A stretch of 64,000 bases of DNA. Origin: Nitrosopumilus sp. (lineage in GTDB: Archaea; Thermoproteota; Nitrososphaeria; Nitrososphaerales; Nitrosopumilaceae). Position numbers and translations under genes: made by a program. The first letter of the stretch is position 1; the number at the start of each line of letters is the position of its first letter. Below, piece by piece: positions 41,879 to 48,950 of the stretch. The notes under the pieces are model-generated. The model worked only from the letters and a program-made list of their open reading frames with translations. It was not told the DNA's origin and did not search any database. Location of the stretch: assembly GCF_025698945.1 (NCBI RefSeq), contig NZ_JAILWM010000002.1, forward strand, positions 166,680 through 230,679, given 5' to 3'.

Positions 41879-41936
41879 AATATAAAGTCAGAATTTATGA
41901 TATATTTACTATTTTAAAATAATAGAAAAATAATAA

Positions 41937-44105
41937 TCATGGATCGGGGCAACCGTCTTCATCTCGGTCACCATCATAATCCTCAGGATCAGATGGACAC
42001 AAGTCAAGATCATTTATGATACCATCCAAATCATCATCATGGACAAATCTTTGCTGTTCTGGAGCAATATCTGGGCAGCCATCATGATCATTGTATTTAT
42101 TCCATGTTTCAGGTTGAGTAGGACACAAATCTATATTGTCATAATAGCCATCACCATCAGAGTCAATTTTTGTAGGTGTAGTTGATTGTGCTGCTAGAAC
42201 ATCTGGACAACCGTCCCAATCCAAATATCCATTAAAGTTCTCTTGTTCATCAAGACATGCATCCCATCTGTCATCTATACCATCTCCATCAGTATCTGGG
42301 AAACTATAAGATGGAATAATGGAGCCTGTTGCATCTGGACAACCGTCTTCGTCTTGATAAAAGTTGTAAGTTTCAGGTTCTAGTGGACATGCATCAGAAA
42401 TATCTGGAATTCCATCTCTGTCAGAATCTAGTATGGAGTTAAAGCTATCAGGACAACCGTCTTTGTCTTGGAATCCATTGTAAGTTTCTGGTTGATTTGG
42501 GCAGGAATCTAGATTATCAACAATACCATCACCATCTGAATCTGCTGTTGGCTTGTTATCAGCAATAGTATCTGGACAGCCATCTGTGTCTTGGAATCTA
42601 TTGTAAGTTTCTCTAGCTTTTGGACATTGATCAATATTATCAGGAATTCCATCAAAATCAGAATCACCAAATGAATCATAAGCTATAGTATCAGGACAAC
42701 CGTCTTCGTCTTGGAATTGATTATATCTTTCAGCAATAGTTGGACATTCATCAAAAATATCTGGAATTAAATCATAATCAATGTCAGATAATGCAGATTT
42801 TGAAACTCCAGGTACATCAGGGCAACCGTCTCTATCAAGATAATCATTATAGTTTTCCTTTTCATCAAGACATGCATCCCATCTGTCATCTATACCATCT
42901 CCATCAGCATCAGGAAATACGTAGGATGATACAACAGTTCCAGAAGTATCAGGACAACCATCAGCATCTTTGAAAAAGTTGTAAGTTTCAGGTTCTAAAG
43001 GACATTCATCTAAAACATTTGGAATTCCATCCATGTCAGAATCTAGTGTTGAGTTAAAGCTATCAGGACAACCGTCATCATCTAAAAATCCATTATATGT
43101 TTCTGGTTGATTGGGGCAATGATCTAGATTATCAACAATTCCATCTCCGTCAGAATCATAAGTAAAAGTATTTGTTCCAGTAGAGTCAGGGCAACCGTCA
43201 TCATCTTGGAATTTGTTGTAAGTTTCTTTAACATAAGGGCATAAGTCATATTGATTTGAAATTCCATCTCCGTCAATATCACTAGTTACTTCATATTCTA
43301 CAGTGTCAGGACAACCGTCATCATCTTGGAATTTGTTAAAATTTTCACGTTCCAATGGACATACATCACGAGAATCTGGAATACTGTCATAATCAGAATC
43401 TATCAAGGCTTCAGAAAATCCAGTAACATCGGGGCAGCCATCCCAGTCAAGAAATCCATTGTAGTTTTCAGGTGAATTCAAGCATGCATCCCATCTGTCA
43501 TCTATTCCATCGCCGTCAGTATCTGGGAATTGGTATTGAGATGTAGTAGAGTCAACAGAATCAGGACAACCGTCATCATCTTGGAATCTATTGTAAGTTT
43601 CAGGTTCTAATGGACATGCATCTAGCGTATCAGAAATGCCATCTCTATCTCTATCAGTTAAGGTTAATGCATTTTCTGGACAACCGTCCTTATCATCAAC
43701 TCCATTGAAAGTTTCTGGTTGATTTGGACACAAGTCCATATAATCAGGATAGCCATCCCCGTCAGAGTCAGCAATGTCTTTTGCCCCACCTGGAGCAATA
43801 TCAGGACAACCGTCATCATCTTGGAATTTGTTGTAAGTCTCTTTTACAGTTGGGCAATTATCAATATGATCTTGAATTCCATCATAATCCACATCATACC
43901 ATGGAACAAAATCAGCAGGACACCCATCAATGTTATTGCCATATTGAGGATCATAATCTTCTTTTAGATGAGGGCAAAAGTCCACATCATTAGGAACACC
44001 GTCACCGTCAGAGTCAATTTCAACATTAGCATATACACTGCCAGGTAGTAGCCCAATAGTAGATGTAAGTAAAAGTAGAAAACCTAAGAGAAATTGTTTT
44101 TTCAT
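41937..44105 (-). CDS. Secreted thrombospondin type 3 repeat protein, copy 1 (722 aa)
   Basis: Signal peptide then about 20 DxDGDGIxDxxDxCP..DGCPD units. Confidence 0.9.
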   Translation of the reverse strand: MKKQFLLGFLLLLTSTIGLLPGSVYANVEIDSDGDGVPNDVDFCPHLKEDYDPQYGNNIDGCPADFVPWYDVDYDGIQDHIDNCPTVKETYNKFQDDDGCPDIAPGGAKDIADSDGDGYPDYMDLCPNQPETFNGVDDKDGCPENALTLTDRDRDGISDTLDACPLEPETYNRFQDDDGCPDSVDSTTSQYQFPDTDGDGIDDRWDACLNSPENYNGFLDWDGCPDVTGFSEALIDSDYDSIPDSRDVCPLERENFNKFQDDDGCPDTVEYEVTSDIDGDGISNQYDLCPYVKETYNKFQDDDGCPDSTGTNTFTYDSDGDGIVDNLDHCPNQPETYNGFLDDDGCPDSFNSTLDSDMDGIPNVLDECPLEPETYNFFKDADGCPDTSGTVVSSYVFPDADGDGIDDRWDACLDEKENYNDYLDRDGCPDVPGVSKSALSDIDYDLIPDIFDECPTIAERYNQFQDEDGCPDTIAYDSFGDSDFDGIPDNIDQCPKARETYNRFQDTDGCPDTIADNKPTADSDGDGIVDNLDSCPNQPETYNGFQDKDGCPDSFNSILDSDRDGIPDISDACPLEPETYNFYQDEDGCPDATGSIIPSYSFPDTDGDGIDDRWDACLDEQENFNGYLDWDGCPDVLAAQSTTPTKIDSDGDGYYDNIDLCPTQPETWNKYNDHDGCPDIAPEQQRFVHDDDLDGIINDLDLCPSDPEDYDGDRDEDGCPDP

Positions 44106-44183
44106 TGTCTATGACACCGCTATTATCACGTATTTATTAAGTCTCACGTTAAATAGATTCTTCTAAATTTTGAAAAATAACAA

Positions 44184-46352
44184 TCATGGATCAGGGCAAC
44201 CGTCTTCGTCTCGGTCACCATCATAATCCTCAGGATCAGATGGACACAAATCAAGATCGTTTATGATTCCATCCAAATCATCATCATGGACAAATCTTTG
44301 CTGTTCTGGAGCAATATCAGGACAGCCATCCCAATCTAAGTATTTGTTCCATGTTTCAGGTTGAGATGGGCAAGAGTCAACTACATCTGGATATCCATCA
44401 TTGTCAGAGTCAGCATAAACTGGAATAGTAGACTCTGCTCCTGGAACATCAGGGCAACCGTCTTTGTCCAAGTAACCATTATAATTTTCTGGCTCGTTAA
44501 TGCAGGAATCCCATCTGTCTTCAATTCCATCACCGTCAGTATCTGGGAATTGGTATTGAGAAATTGTAGAGTCAACAGAGTCAGGGCAACCGTCATCATC
44601 TTGGAATTTGTTATATGTCTCAGGTTCTAATGGACATGCATCAGATACATTTGGAATTCCATCTCTGTCAGAATCAAGTTGTGTTGATAATCTATCAGGA
44701 CAGCCATCTTTGTCTTGGAATCCATTGAATGTTTCAGGTTGAGTAGGACAGAGATCTATTCTATCAGGAATTCCATCACCGTCAGTATCTGCTGATAATT
44801 TGTCATCAGCAATATAGTCTGGGCAGCCATCCCAATCTTGGAATTTATTGTATGTCTCTTTTGCAAGTGGGCATTGATCTACATCATCAAGGATACCATC
44901 ACCGTCAGAGTCACCATTGAATGGAAGAAGAACGCTATCAGGGCAACCGTCATCATCTTGGAATCCATTGTATCTTTCTGCAATAGTTGGACAATCATCT
45001 CTATCATCTGGAATTCCGTCATAGTCAGTATCAATTAATTCTAGGGAGGTAGCACCTGGAACATCAGGGCAACCGTCTTTGTCCAAATAACCATTATAAT
45101 TTTCTGGCTCGTTAATGCATGAATCCCATCTGTCTTCAATTCCATCACCGTCAGTATCTGGGAATTGGTATTGTGATACCAATGAATCAATAGTATCAGG
45201 GCAACCGTCTAAATCTTGGAATCTATTGTAAGTTTCAGGTTCTAATGGACATGCATCTAAATTATCTGGAACACCATCTCTATCTTTGTCATTGAAACCT
45301 AATGAATCAGGGCAACCGTCTTTGTCTTGGAATCCATTGAATGTTTCAGGTTGAGTAGGACACAAATCTATTCTATCAATTATTCCATCACCGTCAGTAT
45401 CTGCTGCAAATTTGTCATCAGCAATATGATCAGGGCAGCCATCCCAATCTTGGAATTTATTATATGTTTCAGGGCTAAAAGGACACAAATCGTTTTGATC
45501 TGGAATACCGTCACCGTCTGCATCACCAGTGAATTTGTACTCAATTAAATCTGGACAACCGTCATCGTCTTGGAATTTATTATAATTTTCACGCTCTAAA
45601 GGACAATCATCTCTATCATCTGGAATTCCGTCATAGTCAGTATCAATTAATTCTAGGGAGGTAGCACCTGGAACATCAGGGCAACCGTCTTTGTCCAAAT
45701 AACCATTATAATTTTCTGGCTCGTTAATGCATGAATCCCATCTGTCTTCAATTCCATCACCGTCAGTATCTGGGAATTGGTATTGAGTTGTAGTAGAGTC
45801 AACAGAATCAGGACAACCGTCATCATCTTGGAATCTATTGTAAGTTTCAGGTTCTAATGGACATGCATCTAAAGGATCAGAAATGCCATCTCTGTCTGAA
45901 TCTTTTAGACTCAATGCATTTTCAGGACAACCGTCCTTATCATCAACTCCATTGAAAGTTTCTGGTTGATTAGGACACAAGTCCATATAATCAGGATAGC
46001 CATCTCCGTCAGAGTCAGCAATGTCTTTTGCCCCACTTGGAGCAATGTCAGGACAACCGTCATCATCTTGGAATTTATTGTAAGTCTCTTTTACAGTTGG
46101 GCAATTATCAATATGATCTTCTACTCCATCAAAATCAGCATCATACCATGGAACAAAATCAGCAGGACACCCATCAATGTTATTGCCATATTGAGGATCA
46201 TAATCTTCTTTTAGATGAGGACATTGATCGATATCATTAGGAACACCGTCACCGTCAGAGTCAATTGCTTGATTAGCAAAGGCACCTCCAGGAAACATTC
46301 CTATTGTAGATGTAAGTAAAATCAAAAATCCTAAAAGAAGTTGTTTATTCAT
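44184..46352 (-). CDS. Secreted thrombospondin type 3 repeat protein, copy 2 (722 aa)
   Basis: Same architecture and length as copy 1; identical last about 40 aa. Confidence 0.9.
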   Translation of the reverse strand: MNKQLLLGFLILLTSTIGMFPGGAFANQAIDSDGDGVPNDIDQCPHLKEDYDPQYGNNIDGCPADFVPWYDADFDGVEDHIDNCPTVKETYNKFQDDDGCPDIAPSGAKDIADSDGDGYPDYMDLCPNQPETFNGVDDKDGCPENALSLKDSDRDGISDPLDACPLEPETYNRFQDDDGCPDSVDSTTTQYQFPDTDGDGIEDRWDSCINEPENYNGYLDKDGCPDVPGATSLELIDTDYDGIPDDRDDCPLERENYNKFQDDDGCPDLIEYKFTGDADGDGIPDQNDLCPFSPETYNKFQDWDGCPDHIADDKFAADTDGDGIIDRIDLCPTQPETFNGFQDKDGCPDSLGFNDKDRDGVPDNLDACPLEPETYNRFQDLDGCPDTIDSLVSQYQFPDTDGDGIEDRWDSCINEPENYNGYLDKDGCPDVPGATSLELIDTDYDGIPDDRDDCPTIAERYNGFQDDDGCPDSVLLPFNGDSDGDGILDDVDQCPLAKETYNKFQDWDGCPDYIADDKLSADTDGDGIPDRIDLCPTQPETFNGFQDKDGCPDRLSTQLDSDRDGIPNVSDACPLEPETYNKFQDDDGCPDSVDSTISQYQFPDTDGDGIEDRWDSCINEPENYNGYLDKDGCPDVPGAESTIPVYADSDNDGYPDVVDSCPSQPETWNKYLDWDGCPDIAPEQQRFVHDDDLDGIINDLDLCPSDPEDYDGDRDEDGCPDP
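44989..45785. repeat. 185-bp exact internal repeat in TSP3 copy 2 (44989-45173 = 45601-45785), period 612 bp
   Basis: Direct comparison; a third near-identical partial copy at about 44440-44560. Confidence 0.85.
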
Positions 46353-46364
46353 TTCCAGATACTC

Positions 46365-48812
46365 CTATTGTCCAGGTGCTGTGTCGGGACAACCATCTGA
46401 ATCTTGATAATTATTGTAAGTCTCAGGCTCTAGTGGACATAGATCATATTCATTGATAATATCATCTAAGTCAGCATCATGTTTGTATCTTGATTGCTCT
46501 GGAGATATATCAGGACAACCATCTGAATCAGAATATTTGTTCCAAGTTTCTTTTTCATTTGGACACAAGTCATTATCATCAAATATTCCATCGCCATCAG
46601 TATCAACTCTTAGATTTCCTGTAGGTACTGTATCAGAACAACCGTCATAATCTGCAAATCGATTCCATGTTTCGTTTTGGGTAGGACACATATCCATTAC
46701 ATCTGGAACACCGTCACCGTCAGAGTCAGGTTGTGTATCATCAACATCAGGGCAACCGTCTTCATCTTGGAATCCATTATAGTTTTCAGCAACTAGTGGA
46801 CAATCATCATCAATATCATTAATTCCGTCATTATCTGAATCAATCACAAATGATGTTGTAATGGTATCGGGACAACCATCATCATCTTGGAATCTATTGT
46901 AAGTCTCTTTTACAGTTGGACATGCATCTATTGCATCAGGAATTCCATCTCTATCACGGTCATTAGATGGAATATAACTATCAGGACAGCCGTCTCTATC
47001 TAGAATTCCATTGAATGTTTCTGGTTGATTTGGACAGTGATCATTATAATCATTAATTCCATCACCATCTGAATCTGGCATTCCTTTGTTATCTGCTATA
47101 TTATCAGGACATCCATCCAAGTCTTGGAATTTATTATAAGTTTCAGGTGAATTTGGGCATTGATCAGTTTTATCAGGAATTCCATCATAGTCTGAATCTA
47201 AACTAGTTACATAATCTGGATAATCTGGGCAACCATCATCATCTTCGAATCCATTATATCTTTCTCTCTCAAGTGGACATTGATCTACTCCATCTAAAAT
47301 ACCATCAAAGTCAGAATCAAATTCAGATGGATTGTCTGGGCAACCGTCTTGATCTTGATATCTATTCCATGTTTCAGCTTCAGTTGGACATTGATCTAAT
47401 TCATCTCGAATACCATCACCGTCAGAATCTAAAACTGCAAGATCTGGACAACCGTCTTGATCTTGATATCCATTAACTGTTTCTGGTTCAAGAGGGCATT
47501 TATCATTCAAATCAATTATTCCATCACCATCAAAGTCGGCATTAGATAATCCAGAGACACCGTCTGGACAGCCGTCATCATCTTGGAATCCATTATAAGT
47601 TTCAGGGTTAAGTGGACATTTATCTAATTCATCAGGAACACCATCTCTATCTCTATCTTGAGTGGATGCAGAATCTGGACAGCCGTCTCTATCAAAAATG
47701 CCATTGAAAGTTTCTGGTTGATTTGGACATAAATCTGCAAAATCATTTATTCCGTCTCCATCAGTATCAGGAATTCCTTTATCACTTGTTACAAAGTCAG
47801 GACAACCGTCTTGATCTTGGAATCTATTGTAAGTTTCTTTTACTTGTGGACATTGATCAATACTGTTTGGAATTCCATCTAGGTCTGAATCAACATCACT
47901 TGAATATGGAGGAATATCAGGACAGCCGTCATCATCTTGGAATCCATTATATCTTTCTGGTTCAAGTGGACATACATCATTAACATCTTTAATTCTGTCA
48001 CCATCAGTATCATCTAGTACTCCATCAAAAGAAGGAGCTGAATCAGGACAACCGTCATAATCTGCGAATCTATTGAAAGTTTCTGGTTCATTTGGACAAA
48101 TATCAAATTTGTCATCAATACCATCACCATCTTTATCATTAAATGTAGTATCTAAAACGACATCAGGACAGCCGTCTGTATCCCTATAACCATTAAACAC
48201 TTCGGGTTCATTTGGACATAAATCAATTTTATCTTGTAAACCATCATTATCTGAATCAATAAAAGAAGAATCTGTTGCATTATCAGGACAGCCGTCTTGA
48301 TCTTGGAATCTATTGTAAGTCTCAGCACTTAGAGGACATTTGTCTAAGTTATCTGGAACTCCATCTCTATCTCTATCACCGGCACCAAAAGTATCAGGAC
48401 AACCATCAGTGTCTAAAATACCATTGAATGTTTCTGGTTGATTTGGACAATTATCTACCAAGTCAACTATACCATCACCGTCAGAATCAGGCAATCCACC
48501 TTTTCCACCAGATGGAGATAAATCAGGACAACCATCCTCATCTTGGAACTTATTGTAACGCTCTTTAAGATTTGGGCATTGATCTAAATGATCTGGAATT
48601 CCATCAAAGTCCTCATCATACCATGGAACAAAATTTGATGGGCATCCATCTATTGCACTCTCATAATCTTCTTGAAGATTTGGACATAAGTCAATTGAAT
48701 CATCAACGCCATCTCGATCCAAGTCAATTTCAGCAAAAGCTGGACTTAGAGGAATGCTGGTTAAAGTAGTAACAAGCAAGACTAGAAATGGTAAAATATG
48801 TATTTTTTTCAA
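46365..48812 (-). CDS. Secreted thrombospondin type 3 repeat protein, copy 3 (815 aa)
   Basis: Signal peptide plus TSP3 units, more diverged than copies 1 and 2. Confidence 0.9.
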
Positions 48813-48950
48813 TGCCTAAAAATACGTCGAGGATCCAGTTATTAAACCTCACTCTAGAATCAGCTAAAAATCTTTGAAGATTTAGTAAAAAATTCCATGA
48901 TGGACAAAAATCTCGATCAATTTAAGTAAATGAGATCAAGATTTGAACAT

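What the first reader, a model, noticed from the sequence alone, without database searches (positions are those of the whole stretch)
41937..48812. Three tandem, anchor-less TSP3 repeat genes (6.9 kb) with a 34-aa/204-aa hierarchical period and signs of concerted evolution
Seen: each protein is a signal peptide plus almost only Asp/Cys-rich units, with no OmpA-like or TM anchor. Copies 1 and 2 are both 722 aa with near-identical ends but diverged middles; within copy 2 a 185-bp block recurs exactly at 612 bp (6 x 34 aa). Established: TSP3 repeats bind many Ca2+ and are disulfide-stapled. Inference: a secreted hetero-oligomeric Ca-stiffened filament or polyanionic coat (adhesion, virus/grazer shielding, or cation capture), diversified by repeat shuffling. 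This is a costly investment for a streamlined genome and the best protein-level candidate for an uncharacterised system here.
Basis: partly seen in the sequence, partly recalled or inferred. Interest (0 to 1): 0.65.

Follow-up and report, generated by a model that had tools for sequence, protein, structure and literature searches.

The report
Conserved archaeal calcium-repeat envelope gene triplet
Three neighbouring genes of this ammonia-oxidising archaeon encode exported, extremely acidic proteins made only of thrombospondin-type calcium-binding repeats; the triplet is real, but it is the already reported, functionally unexplained "TT3R" triplet of cultured Nitrosopumilus.

Summary
Three minus-strand genes of 722, 722 and 815 aa each encode a signal peptide followed only by thrombospondin type 3 (TSP3) units, with no anchor. 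Units are 36-44 aa, not 34. The higher period is 5 units (204-205 aa) in A and B and about 6 units in C. The 185-nt exact repeat at 612-nt spacing is real.

The triplet lies between dus and taw1/TYW1, as in Nitrosopumilus/Nitrosarchaeum genomes generally, including complete chromosomes. It is the positional orthologue of orthogroup OG0007 in Bayer et al. 2019. There, TT3R proteins were found in cell pellets and were 15-40x more abundant under H2O2 exposure.

Added here:
- The 5' ~630 nt of A and B are homogenised by gene conversion within each genome, while the middles are old orthologues.
- Protein lengths are quantised: 723, 928 and 1133 aa for A/B, 811 and 1043 aa for C.
- A conserved promoter motif is shared by two transcription units, C-B and A.

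Function is still inferred. I read them as Ca2+-loaded, disulfide-stapled, non-globular polyanionic envelope proteins, probably trapped under the S-layer. A hetero-oligomeric filament is untested. Verdict: a new member of a known kind, of moderate interest.

The parts
46365..48812 (-). Gene C: 815 aa, TTG start. Signal peptide of about 27 aa (ends ...PAFA, then EID), 20 TSP3 units, about 6-unit (231-240 aa) higher period. Ends ...[10 protein letters not shown] with no anchor.
   Evidence: The TTG start is conserved in 46 of 48 orthologues.
44184..46352 (-). Gene B: 722 aa. Signal peptide of about 26 aa (...GAFA, then NQ), 17 TSP3 units arranged as N-cap (3 units) + 2 x [a-b-c-d-e] + a-b + C-cap (2 units). 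Ends ...DEDGCPDP.
41937..44105 (-). Gene A: 722 aa, same architecture as B. Its middle units form a separate orthologous clade.
48839..48852 (-). Promoter motif GTGAGGTTTAATAA (BRE/TATA-like), ending 26 nt upstream of the TTG of gene C. It lies in a ~40-nt block that is almost invariant in relatives and contains a GGATCC palindrome.
44134..44147 (-). Second copy of the motif, GTGAGACTTAATAA, ending 28 nt upstream of the ATG of gene A. This gives A its own promoter.
46353..46364 (-). 12-nt C-B junction (TAG GAGTATCTGGAA ATG) containing GGAG. It is conserved in relatives, so C and B are probably co-transcribed and translationally coupled.
45723..46352 (-). 5' conversion tract in gene B (nt 1-630: signal peptide plus units 1-5), 91-96% identical to the same part of A.
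43476..44105 (-). 5' conversion tract in gene A, the partner of 45723-46352.
44184..44372 (-). 3' similarity tract in gene B (nt 1981-2169, the C-cap), 87-100% identical to A at 41937-42125. The similarity runs about 12 nt past the stop codon.
   Evidence: (family D7).
41937..42125 (-). 3' similarity tract in gene A, the partner of 44184-44372.
44989..45173 (.). First copy of the 185-nt exact repeat inside gene B (super-repeat 2).
   Evidence: It reflects a lineage-specific intragenic conversion: WIN_B1 and WIN_B2 are sisters (SH-aLRT 98), whereas B1 and B2 are position-specific clades in most other genomes.
45601..45785 (.). Second copy of the 185-nt exact repeat inside gene B (super-repeat 1), 612 nt from the first.
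44160..44183 (-). T-rich stretch directly after the stop of B (TGATTGTTATTTTTCAAAATTT), a likely archaeal terminator separating unit C-B from unit A.
   Evidence: Read from the sequence only.
41915..41936 (-). T-rich stretch directly after the stop of A (TGATTATTATTTTTCTATTATTTT), a likely terminator.
   Evidence: Read from the sequence only.

Best explanation
These genes are the positional orthologues of the Nitrosopumilus TT3R triplet (orthogroup OG0007 of Bayer et al. 2019).

Proposed mechanism, with the status of each step:
- Each protein is exported by a Sec-type signal peptide. Shown: the signal peptide is present. The cleavage site is inferred.
- Outside the membrane, each ~41-aa unit closes one Cys-Cys staple and loads Ca2+ on its invariant Asp/Glu/Asn ligands. 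Inferred from homology to the solved TSP3 repeats of C. gingivalis OmpA, COMP and thrombospondins.
- The product is a non-globular, bead-like polyanionic chain of fixed length: 17, 17 and 20 units. Shown: there is no predicted secondary structure or compact fold, and lengths are conserved.
- The proteins have no anchor, and the N. maritimus S-layer pores are only about 5 A. The 77-87-kDa chains therefore most likely stay with the cell envelope, probably in the pseudoperiplasm beneath or bound to the S-layer. Orthologues do pellet with cells; the exact location is inferred.
- There they would act as a Ca2+-dependent structural matrix or spacer that the cell builds up under H2O2 stress. Shown for orthologues: 15-40x more abundant.

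Expression comes from two units, C-B and A, which share a conserved promoter motif.

The family evolves in three ways: recurrent gene conversion of the A and B 5' ends, occasional intragenic conversion, and gain of whole super-repeats.
For: Identity and orthology:
- The gene order P-II, dus, TSP3 x3, taw1/TYW1, Ham1 dITPase, Bud32 kinase, Kae1 in the window matches the consecutive IMG gene numbers in Data Set S1 of PMC6593220. There 641317176 is the dihydrouridine synthase, 641317177-179 are OG0007, 641317180 is taw1, followed by dITPase, the kinase and Kae1, with P-II at 641317174.
- All 80 related loci either carry TSP3 genes directly upstream of TYW1 or end at that point.

Protein chemistry:
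- TSP_3 is the only Pfam family.
- The ligand and Cys pattern is invariant in 43 sequences and in 86 super-repeats.
- Net charge is -156 to -173, and there is no TM segment or C-terminal sorting signal. Family-wide, the proteins end right after the last DGCPD.

Structure:
- AF2 gives pLDDT 60 and 71, pTM 0.17 and 0.22, with no secondary structure.
- Foldseek and phmmer hit only TSP3 structures.

Expression and location of orthologues:
- Whole-cell pellets were analysed, and two TT3R proteins were 15-40x more abundant under H2O2 exposure.
- The S-layer has ~5 A pores, and S-layer integrity is EGTA-sensitive (PMC11153153).

Regulation:
- The motif GTGAGNNTTAATAA occurs twice in 64 kb against 0.01 expected, both times upstream of these genes, and at the same places in 52 loci.

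Evolution.
Against: - No experiment localises these proteins. A pellet could also contain extracellular aggregates or matrix stuck to cells.
- Ca2+ binding and disulfides are inferred from homology only.
- The H2O2 response is from other species, and only two of the three proteins responded.
- The neighbouring genes are housekeeping tRNA-modification genes and give no functional clue.
- AF2 does not model Ca2+, so 'extended chain' may partly reflect a missing cofactor.
- No expression data exist for this genome.
Confidence: 0.6

Rival explanations
1. The proteins are a released or outward-facing Ca2+-dependent adhesin or extracellular matrix. The chains leave the envelope, or decorate the outside of the S-layer, and glue cells to each other or to particles. 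This is the thrombospondin or myxobacterial Mts-like role and is close to the first reader's 'coat/adhesion' idea.
For: - There is no anchor.
- Bayer et al. saw small aggregates in H2O2-exposed cultures and proposed extracellular-matrix remodelling.
- Anchor-less TSP3-only proteins also occur in Myxococcota, Woesearchaeota and Nanoarchaeota.
Against: - S-layer pores of ~5 A leave no obvious route out for a 77-87-kDa chain.
- The proteins carry only 1-2 N-glycosylation sequons each, against 17 glycans on the S-layer protein. This is only weakly informative.
- No partner or receptor domain is present.
Confidence: 0.22
2. The proteins are a fixed-charge cation exchanger or reservoir. Their function would be their charge (about -160 per chain), which raises NH4+, Cu2+ or other cation activity near the membrane, rather than mechanics.
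For: - The acidity is extreme.
- The N. maritimus S-layer is proposed to funnel NH4+ along a charge gradient that increases toward the membrane.
- The amo genes lie about 17 kb away in the same window (notes 3 and 5).
Against: - The acidic residues sit at invariant TSP3 Ca2+-ligand positions, not spread as generic charge. In seawater they should be occupied by Ca2+.
- Induction is by H2O2. No response to ammonia limitation is reported in the sources read.
Confidence: 0.1
3. The array is a diversity-generating surface array, a virus or grazer decoy. Tandem paralogues and internal repeats would recombine to vary an exposed surface.
For: Gene conversion and super-repeat gain or loss do occur. Some genomes carry an extra truncated copy (L003, L072).
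Against: - Lengths and unit order are conserved across genera. The four super-repeats A1, A2, B1 and B2 are mostly position-specific orthologous clades.
- Non-ligand positions are moderately conserved (0.53-0.75), not hypervariable.
- Conversion homogenises the copies.
Confidence: 0.04
4. The array is an assembly artefact or decaying repeat DNA.
For: Short-read contigs of relatives often break here: 51 of 80 contigs end within the span where the array lies. No run holds this exact sequence in full.
Against: - The frames are intact, and lengths match the family mode within 1-4 aa.
- The same architecture is present in complete chromosomes of more than 10 species.
- Functional residues are invariant.
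- Orthologues are detected as protein.
Confidence: 0.01

Closest known systems
[quoted passage not shown] 2019, mSystems, PMC6593220)
   Same: Same locus (dus - TSP3 x3 - taw1), same gene number and same content (signal peptide plus TSP3 only). The paper modelled one protein out to residue 722. Function is unknown there too.
   Different: This is a different species: the flanking TYW1 is at most 93% identical to any genome scanned. Not described in that paper: the 5-unit and 6-unit super-repeats, the quantised lengths, the mosaic gene conversion, and the shared promoter motif with the C-B/A unit structure. The paper's remark that these proteins have 10% Ala does not fit this family (3-4% Ala, 22% Asp).
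TSP3 repeats of the periplasmic part of Capnocytophaga gingivalis OmpA (PDB 5wtl; Dai et al. 2017, Cell Calcium, as cited in PMC6593220)
   Same: Best sequence and Foldseek match (E 5e-7; probability 1.0; 35-38% identity). Both have a DxDxDGxxDxxDxCP loop closed by an intra-repeat disulfide, and both lie in an envelope compartment between two layers.
   Different: The bacterial unit is about 27 aa, against 36-44 aa here, where the disulfide loop is longer and adds invariant E/N/D positions (alignment). The bacterial repeats link a beta-barrel to an OmpA_C peptidoglycan-binding domain. The archaeal proteins have neither.
Type 3 repeat 'wire' of thrombospondin-1/-2 and COMP (PDB 1ux6, 1yo8, 2rhp, 3fby)
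   Same: Ca2+-loaded, disulfide-stapled, without secondary structure. Matched by Pfam TSP_3 and by weak Foldseek and phmmer hits.
   Different: The animal proteins carry coiled-coil, EGF and C-terminal lectin-like domains, and the wire wraps around that globe. Here the repeats are the whole protein. Identity is 24-27%.
Myxobacterial TSP3 proteins: the mts locus (Zhang et al. 2007, as cited in PMC6593220) and Myxococcota 'thrombospondin type 3 repeat-containing' / OmpA family proteins
   Same: These are the highest-scoring database relatives (33-53% identity). Some are TSP3-only. A cell-surface matrix role has been proposed for them.
   Different: Most carry OmpA_C (PF00691) and/or beta-barrel domains. 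There is no conserved triplet and no 5-unit super-repeat.

Membership tests
TSP_3 repeat (Pfam PF02412) | Scores above the Pfam gathering threshold | tested here: met
   115, 130 and 142 bits against a cutoff of 25, with 6-8 matched stretches per protein.
TSP_3 repeat (Pfam PF02412) | DxDxDGxxDxxD calcium loop in every unit | tested here: met
   Invariant across 43 full-length sequences and 86 super-repeats.
TSP_3 repeat (Pfam PF02412) | Paired cysteines able to form an intra-repeat disulfide | tested here: met
   Two invariant Cys per unit, giving 34, 34 and 40 Cys. The bond itself cannot be tested here.
TSP_3 repeat (Pfam PF02412) | Ca2+ binding and Ca2+-dependent folding | not testable with these tools
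   Needs ITC, CD or 45Ca work on recombinant protein.
TSP_3 repeat (Pfam PF02412) | Local fold like solved TSP3 repeats | tested here: inconclusive
   Foldseek finds only TSP3 structures (probability 1.0 to 5wtl). However, TM-scores are 0.05-0.16 and the models have pLDDT 60-71.
Nitrosopumilus TT3R triplet (OG0007, Bayer et al. 2019) | Three consecutive TSP3 genes between tRNA dihydrouridine synthase and taw1 | tested here: met
   Window order, against the gene-number order in Data Set S1.
Nitrosopumilus TT3R triplet (OG0007, Bayer et al. 2019) | Signal peptide plus TSP3 repeats only, about 722 aa for the shorter members | tested here: met
   Text S1 of the paper models residues up to 722.
Nitrosopumilus TT3R triplet (OG0007, Bayer et al. 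2019) | Made as protein and raised under H2O2 exposure | not testable with these tools
   No RNA or protein data exist for this organism. This is shown only for the cultured orthologues.
OmpA-family TSP3 proteins (bacterial) | C-terminal OmpA_C peptidoglycan-binding domain (PF00691) and/or an N-terminal beta-barrel | tested here: not met
   No such Pfam hit at E <= 0.01. The proteins end 2-6 residues after the last unit.
Thrombospondin/COMP (metazoan) | EGF repeats, an oligomerisation coiled-coil and a C-terminal lectin-like domain flanking the type 3 repeats | tested here: not met
   Only TSP_3 is found. No helices are predicted beyond the signal peptide.

The most novel reading that the evidence does not exclude
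The TT3R chains are the so far unassigned contents of the pseudoperiplasm of Nitrosopumilaceae. They would be Ca2+-stiffened struts or a polyanionic gel of quantised length (723 + n x 205 aa; 811 + 231 aa) that the S-layer rests on or binds to. In this reading they help set the distance between S-layer and membrane. They also extend the S-layer's inward-increasing negative charge gradient that funnels NH4+ to ammonia monooxygenase. The EGTA-induced loss of the S-layer and of NH4+ binding would then be partly an effect on these proteins. The homogenised A/B N-terminal cap would be the common docking end. An earlier agent of this scan voiced a similar idea on another genome, so this repetition is not independent support.
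Probability: 0.12. Interest if true: 0.75.

Novelty: new member of a known kind. Interest (0 to 1): 0.33.

Why it matters
Nitrosopumilaceae are among the most abundant microbes in the ocean and drive marine nitrification. Their envelope is where ammonia is captured and oxidised and where reactive by-products arise.

A conserved gene array of about 7 kb survives in at least one copy even in the pelagic single-gene lineages. Its products are among the proteins that rise most under H2O2 exposure in cultured strains. It is therefore probably a significant envelope component, yet it has no assigned role.

The results here give concrete handles for experiments:
- a defined 205-aa super-repeat to express;
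- conserved N- and C-terminal caps to test for docking;
- a specific promoter element to look for in other stress-induced genes.

The locus also serves as a practical warning. It breaks most short-read assemblies of these genomes.

Tried and rejected
1. Checking the assembly and expression in this very organism. Public runs hold at most 45% of the sampled words, and only as 200-300-nt Logan contigs of related strains. No RNA run was found. This led nowhere.
2. Exact look-up of the three proteins in the 15-billion-protein collection. None is present.
3. Homology searches to obtain named Nitrosopumilus orthologues. The searches were swamped by bacterial OmpA/TSP3 proteins, and the N-terminal-region search returned no close AOA orthologue. 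Orthology was therefore established by synteny from genome loci and from the paper's gene table.
4. P0109, the N. koreensis 'OmpA domain-containing protein' of 1098 aa, as a possible orthologue. It lies at a different locus and was rejected.
5. A compact fold for the 5-unit super-repeat that would explain the period. AF2 with 86 sequences gives an extended chain with pTM 0.22, so a compact module has no support.
6. A TT3R-DsbA fusion (P0004) as a Rosetta-stone link to disulfide oxidoreductases. It is a singleton on a 2.4-kb metagenome contig and no second fusion was found. It is not used as evidence.
7. Bacterial sigma-70 promoter and terminator scans. Counts were at or below the shuffled expectation and the scans are irrelevant for an archaeon. 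I read the intergenic regions directly instead.
I could not search for other copies of the promoter motif or for other TSP3 genes in this genome.
9. The 34-aa unit and the 6 x 34 reading were rejected.


Full report
**1. What is there**

The window is from a Nitrosopumilus-like ammonia-oxidising archaeon. GC content is about 33%. The TYW1 gene next to the finding is up to 93% identical to Nitrosopumilus MAGs.

Three minus-strand ORFs fill 41937-48812:
- A, 41937-44105, 722 aa
- B, 44184-46352, 722 aa
- C, 46365-48812, 815 aa, TTG start

Pfam finds only TSP_3, at 115-142 bits against a cutoff of 25. After a 26-27-aa hydrophobic signal peptide ending in an AxA-type site, no hydrophobic segment follows. 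The chains stop 2-6 residues after the last repeat. The mature proteins are 77-87 kDa, 22% Asp, carry 34, 34 and 40 Cys, and have net charge -156 to -173.

**2. Repeat anatomy**

Cutting at the DGCP motif gives 17, 17 and 20 units of 36-44 aa, each with two Cys. There is no 34-aa period.

Protein self-offset peaks are:
- 205 and 409 aa in A
- 204 and 409 aa in B
- 240, 231 and 40 aa in C

C has a period of about six units.

The 185-nt exact repeat at 44989 and 45601 (612 nt apart) is real and is the longest exact repeat in the region.

Across 43 orthologues and paralogues, each unit keeps an invariant pattern: D-x-D-x-D-(G)-x-x-D-x-x-D-x-C-(P)-x-x-x-E-x-x-N-x-x-x-D-x-D-G-C-P-D. The same holds in 86 aligned super-repeats. 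These positions are the Ca2+-ligand and disulfide positions of thrombospondin type 3 repeats.

**3. Conservation and assembly**

I used TYW1 as a handle to fetch 80 loci from Nitrosopumilus, Nitrosarchaeum and other Nitrosopumilaceae. Every one either carries TSP3 genes directly upstream of TYW1 or its contig ends there.

Complete chromosomes and long contigs show the same triplet. Modal lengths are 811 aa for the C position (24 of 48 genes) and 722-724 aa for the A/B positions (29 of 50). Variants are quantised:
- 924-932 and 1129-1133 aa in A/B (+205 and +410 aa)
- 1042-1043 aa in C (+231 aa)

One marine clade has a single gene of 707-720 aa.

Of the 80 contigs, 51 end inside the span of the array, so the locus breaks short-read assemblies. 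I could not test this genome's own assembly. However, its 815/722/722 aa fit the family norm, which argues against collapse.

**4. Already known**

Bayer et al. [quoted passage not shown] Two of them were on average 15-40x more abundant in H2O2-exposed cultures than in cultures with catalase or a catalase-producing partner. The material analysed was whole-cell pellets.

Their orthogroup OG0007 consists of three consecutive genes in each strain. In N. maritimus these are 641317177-179. They are flanked by the tRNA dihydrouridine synthase (641317176) and taw1 (641317180). Beyond taw1 come dITPase, a Ser/Thr kinase and Kae1, and P-II lies three genes before the triplet (641317174).

This is exactly the window's order. 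The window's genes are therefore positional orthologues of a reported, expressed and functionally unexplained family. A second paper cites a thrombospondin-like extracellular structure in deep-sea AOA.

**5. Structure**

AlphaFold2 with family alignments gives no secondary structure and no compact fold:
- full-length B: pLDDT 60, pTM 0.17
- one five-unit super-repeat: pLDDT 71, pTM 0.22

Confidence rises in unit cores and falls in the linkers. Foldseek and phmmer against the PDB return only TSP3-containing structures: C. gingivalis OmpA 5wtl, COMP 3fby, and thrombospondin-1/-2 entries 2rhp, 1yo8 and 1ux6.

Compared with the 27-aa bacterial unit, the archaeal unit has a longer disulfide loop with extra invariant acidic positions (alignment).

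**6. Evolution**

I compared 13 genomes that have three complete genes.

For units 1-5:
- A and B are sister sequences within their own genome in at least 10 of the 13 genomes, with ultrafast bootstrap 98-100.
- Within-genome nucleotide identity has a median of 80% and reaches 98%.
- Between genomes it is 67% for A against A and 77% for B against B.

For units 1-4:
- Third codon positions are 75-97% identical within a genome.
- Between genomes the median is 60% and the maximum 72%.

This homogenisation therefore acts on DNA, which means gene conversion rather than protein-level selection.

The middle units behave differently. The 11 Nitrosopumilus A sequences form one clade (100/100) apart from the B sequences, so the middles are old orthologues. 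The two Nitrosarchaeum genomes pair A with B over the whole length.

The four super-repeats A1, A2, B1 and B2 are mostly position-specific clades. SR1 groups with SR1 and SR2 with SR2, so the intragenic duplication predates the A/B gene duplication. In this window, B1 and B2 are sisters (SH-aLRT 98). The 185-nt exact repeat is thus the trace of a recent, lineage-specific intragenic conversion.

It is localised and homogenising, not a diversification engine.

**7. Expression signals**

The motif GTGAGNNTTAATAA occurs exactly twice in the 64-kb window, against 0.01 expected. One copy ends 26 nt before the TTG of C and the other 28 nt before the ATG of A. It is found at the same two places in 52 related loci, inside blocks of about 40 nt that are nearly invariant although the coding DNA differs by 20-30%.

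B starts 12 nt after the stop of C, behind a conserved GGAG. T-rich runs follow the stops of B and A.

I infer two units, C-B and A, with a shared promoter element and short or absent leaders. This is read from sequence only.

**8. How it most likely works**

Shown:
- The proteins are signal-peptide proteins made only of TSP3 units.
- Ligand and Cys positions are under strong constraint.
- Lengths are conserved.
- Orthologues are made, pellet with cells and rise under H2O2.

Inferred:
- Sec export.
- One disulfide and about two Ca2+ per unit, giving roughly 34, 34 and 40 sites. These would be saturated in seawater and yield semi-rigid acidic chains.

[quoted passage not shown] Its authors also suggest that it is anchored to unidentified envelope molecules (PMC11153153). 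An anchor-less 77-87-kDa chain should therefore remain under or on the S-layer.

I commit to a Ca2+-dependent structural matrix or spacer of the envelope that is reinforced under oxidative stress, with confidence 0.6 for the whole statement. The identity part is near certain. Localisation and role are about even odds.

The rivals are an outward adhesin or matrix (0.22), a cation exchanger (0.10), a diversity-generating decoy (0.04) and an artefact (0.01). A hetero-oligomeric filament remains untested. The conserved and homogenised caps are compatible with a common docking end but do not show one.

**9. Verdict**

This is a new member of a known kind, since the family is annotated, reported in proteomes and still without a function.

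Two earlier agents of this scan reached the same filing on other genomes. I re-derived the orthology and anatomy independently and do not count their notes as evidence.

Interest is moderate at 0.33. The most novel reading not excluded is that these chains form the pseudoperiplasmic scaffold or charge gel linked to the S-layer. I put that at about 0.12.

Noticed in passing
window 48813-48860 and 44106-44160 (minus strand); same places in L003-L079: A ~40-nt promoter/leader block upstream of gene C (…GAGTGAGGTTTAATAACTGGATCCTCGACGTATTTTTAGGC) is almost invariant across genera and contains a GGATCC palindrome between the TATA-like box and the start codon. Gene A has a second conserved block (…AACGTGAGACTTAATAAATACTTGATAATAGCGG…). 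This could be the binding site of a stress-responsive regulator.
   Followed up: partly
window 48810-48812; orthologues in 48 loci: Gene C starts with TTG in 46 of 48 orthologues, while the A/B genes start with ATG in 48 of 50. The single-gene marine clade also uses TTG (8 of 9). A conserved weak start codon on what looks like a leaderless or short-leader mRNA is unusual.
   Followed up: partly
L084:203-1900 (JGI metagenome 3300023223, 2.4-kb contig); protein P0004: A 565-aa relative carries nine units of this same family, including the RWD unit and the C-cap. These are fused to a C-terminal DsbA/thioredoxin domain with a CQFC motif. No second such fusion was found.
   Followed up: yes
L082:8001-13137 (Ca. 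Nitrosopumilus koreensis AR1, CP003842.1): A different TSP3-bearing protein of 1098 aa (named 'OmpA domain-containing') and a neighbouring 474-aa HpiC1-like + TSP3 protein lie in another locus, near a CHAT-domain protein. Nitrosopumilus therefore has TSP3 proteins beyond the triplet.
   Followed up: no
PMC6593220 Text S1, compared with window proteins and alignment A1: The paper explains a rise in alanyl-tRNA synthetase by a '10% alanine content' of the putative thrombospondins. The window's proteins and their orthologues have 3-4% Ala and about 22% Asp.
   Followed up: yes
L001-L080, upstream of TYW1: 51 of 80 related contigs end inside the span of the TSP3 array, and 28 of those end within or at gene C. 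In one case the contig that ends there is 623 kb long (L018). The locus is a systematic breakpoint of short-read assemblies of Nitrosopumilaceae.
   Followed up: yes
L003:4059-5249, L072:4214-5248, L020:8230-9882, L059:8698-9873: Some genomes carry an extra short copy (345-397 aa, 8-9 units) or a shortened C-type gene (392-551 aa) with an aberrant C-terminus. This indicates copy-number change, and possibly decay, in some lineages.
   Followed up: no
L062 and L070 (Nitrosarchaeum): In the two Nitrosarchaeum genomes, A and B pair by genome over their whole length, not just at the 5' end. This means either an independent duplication or full-length conversion.
   Followed up: partly
window 42000-48000: GC content is 0.37-0.39 across the array against 0.30-0.34 in the flanks. 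This is explained by codon demand for Asp, Gly, Cys and Pro rather than by foreign origin. I did not test it further.
   Followed up: no
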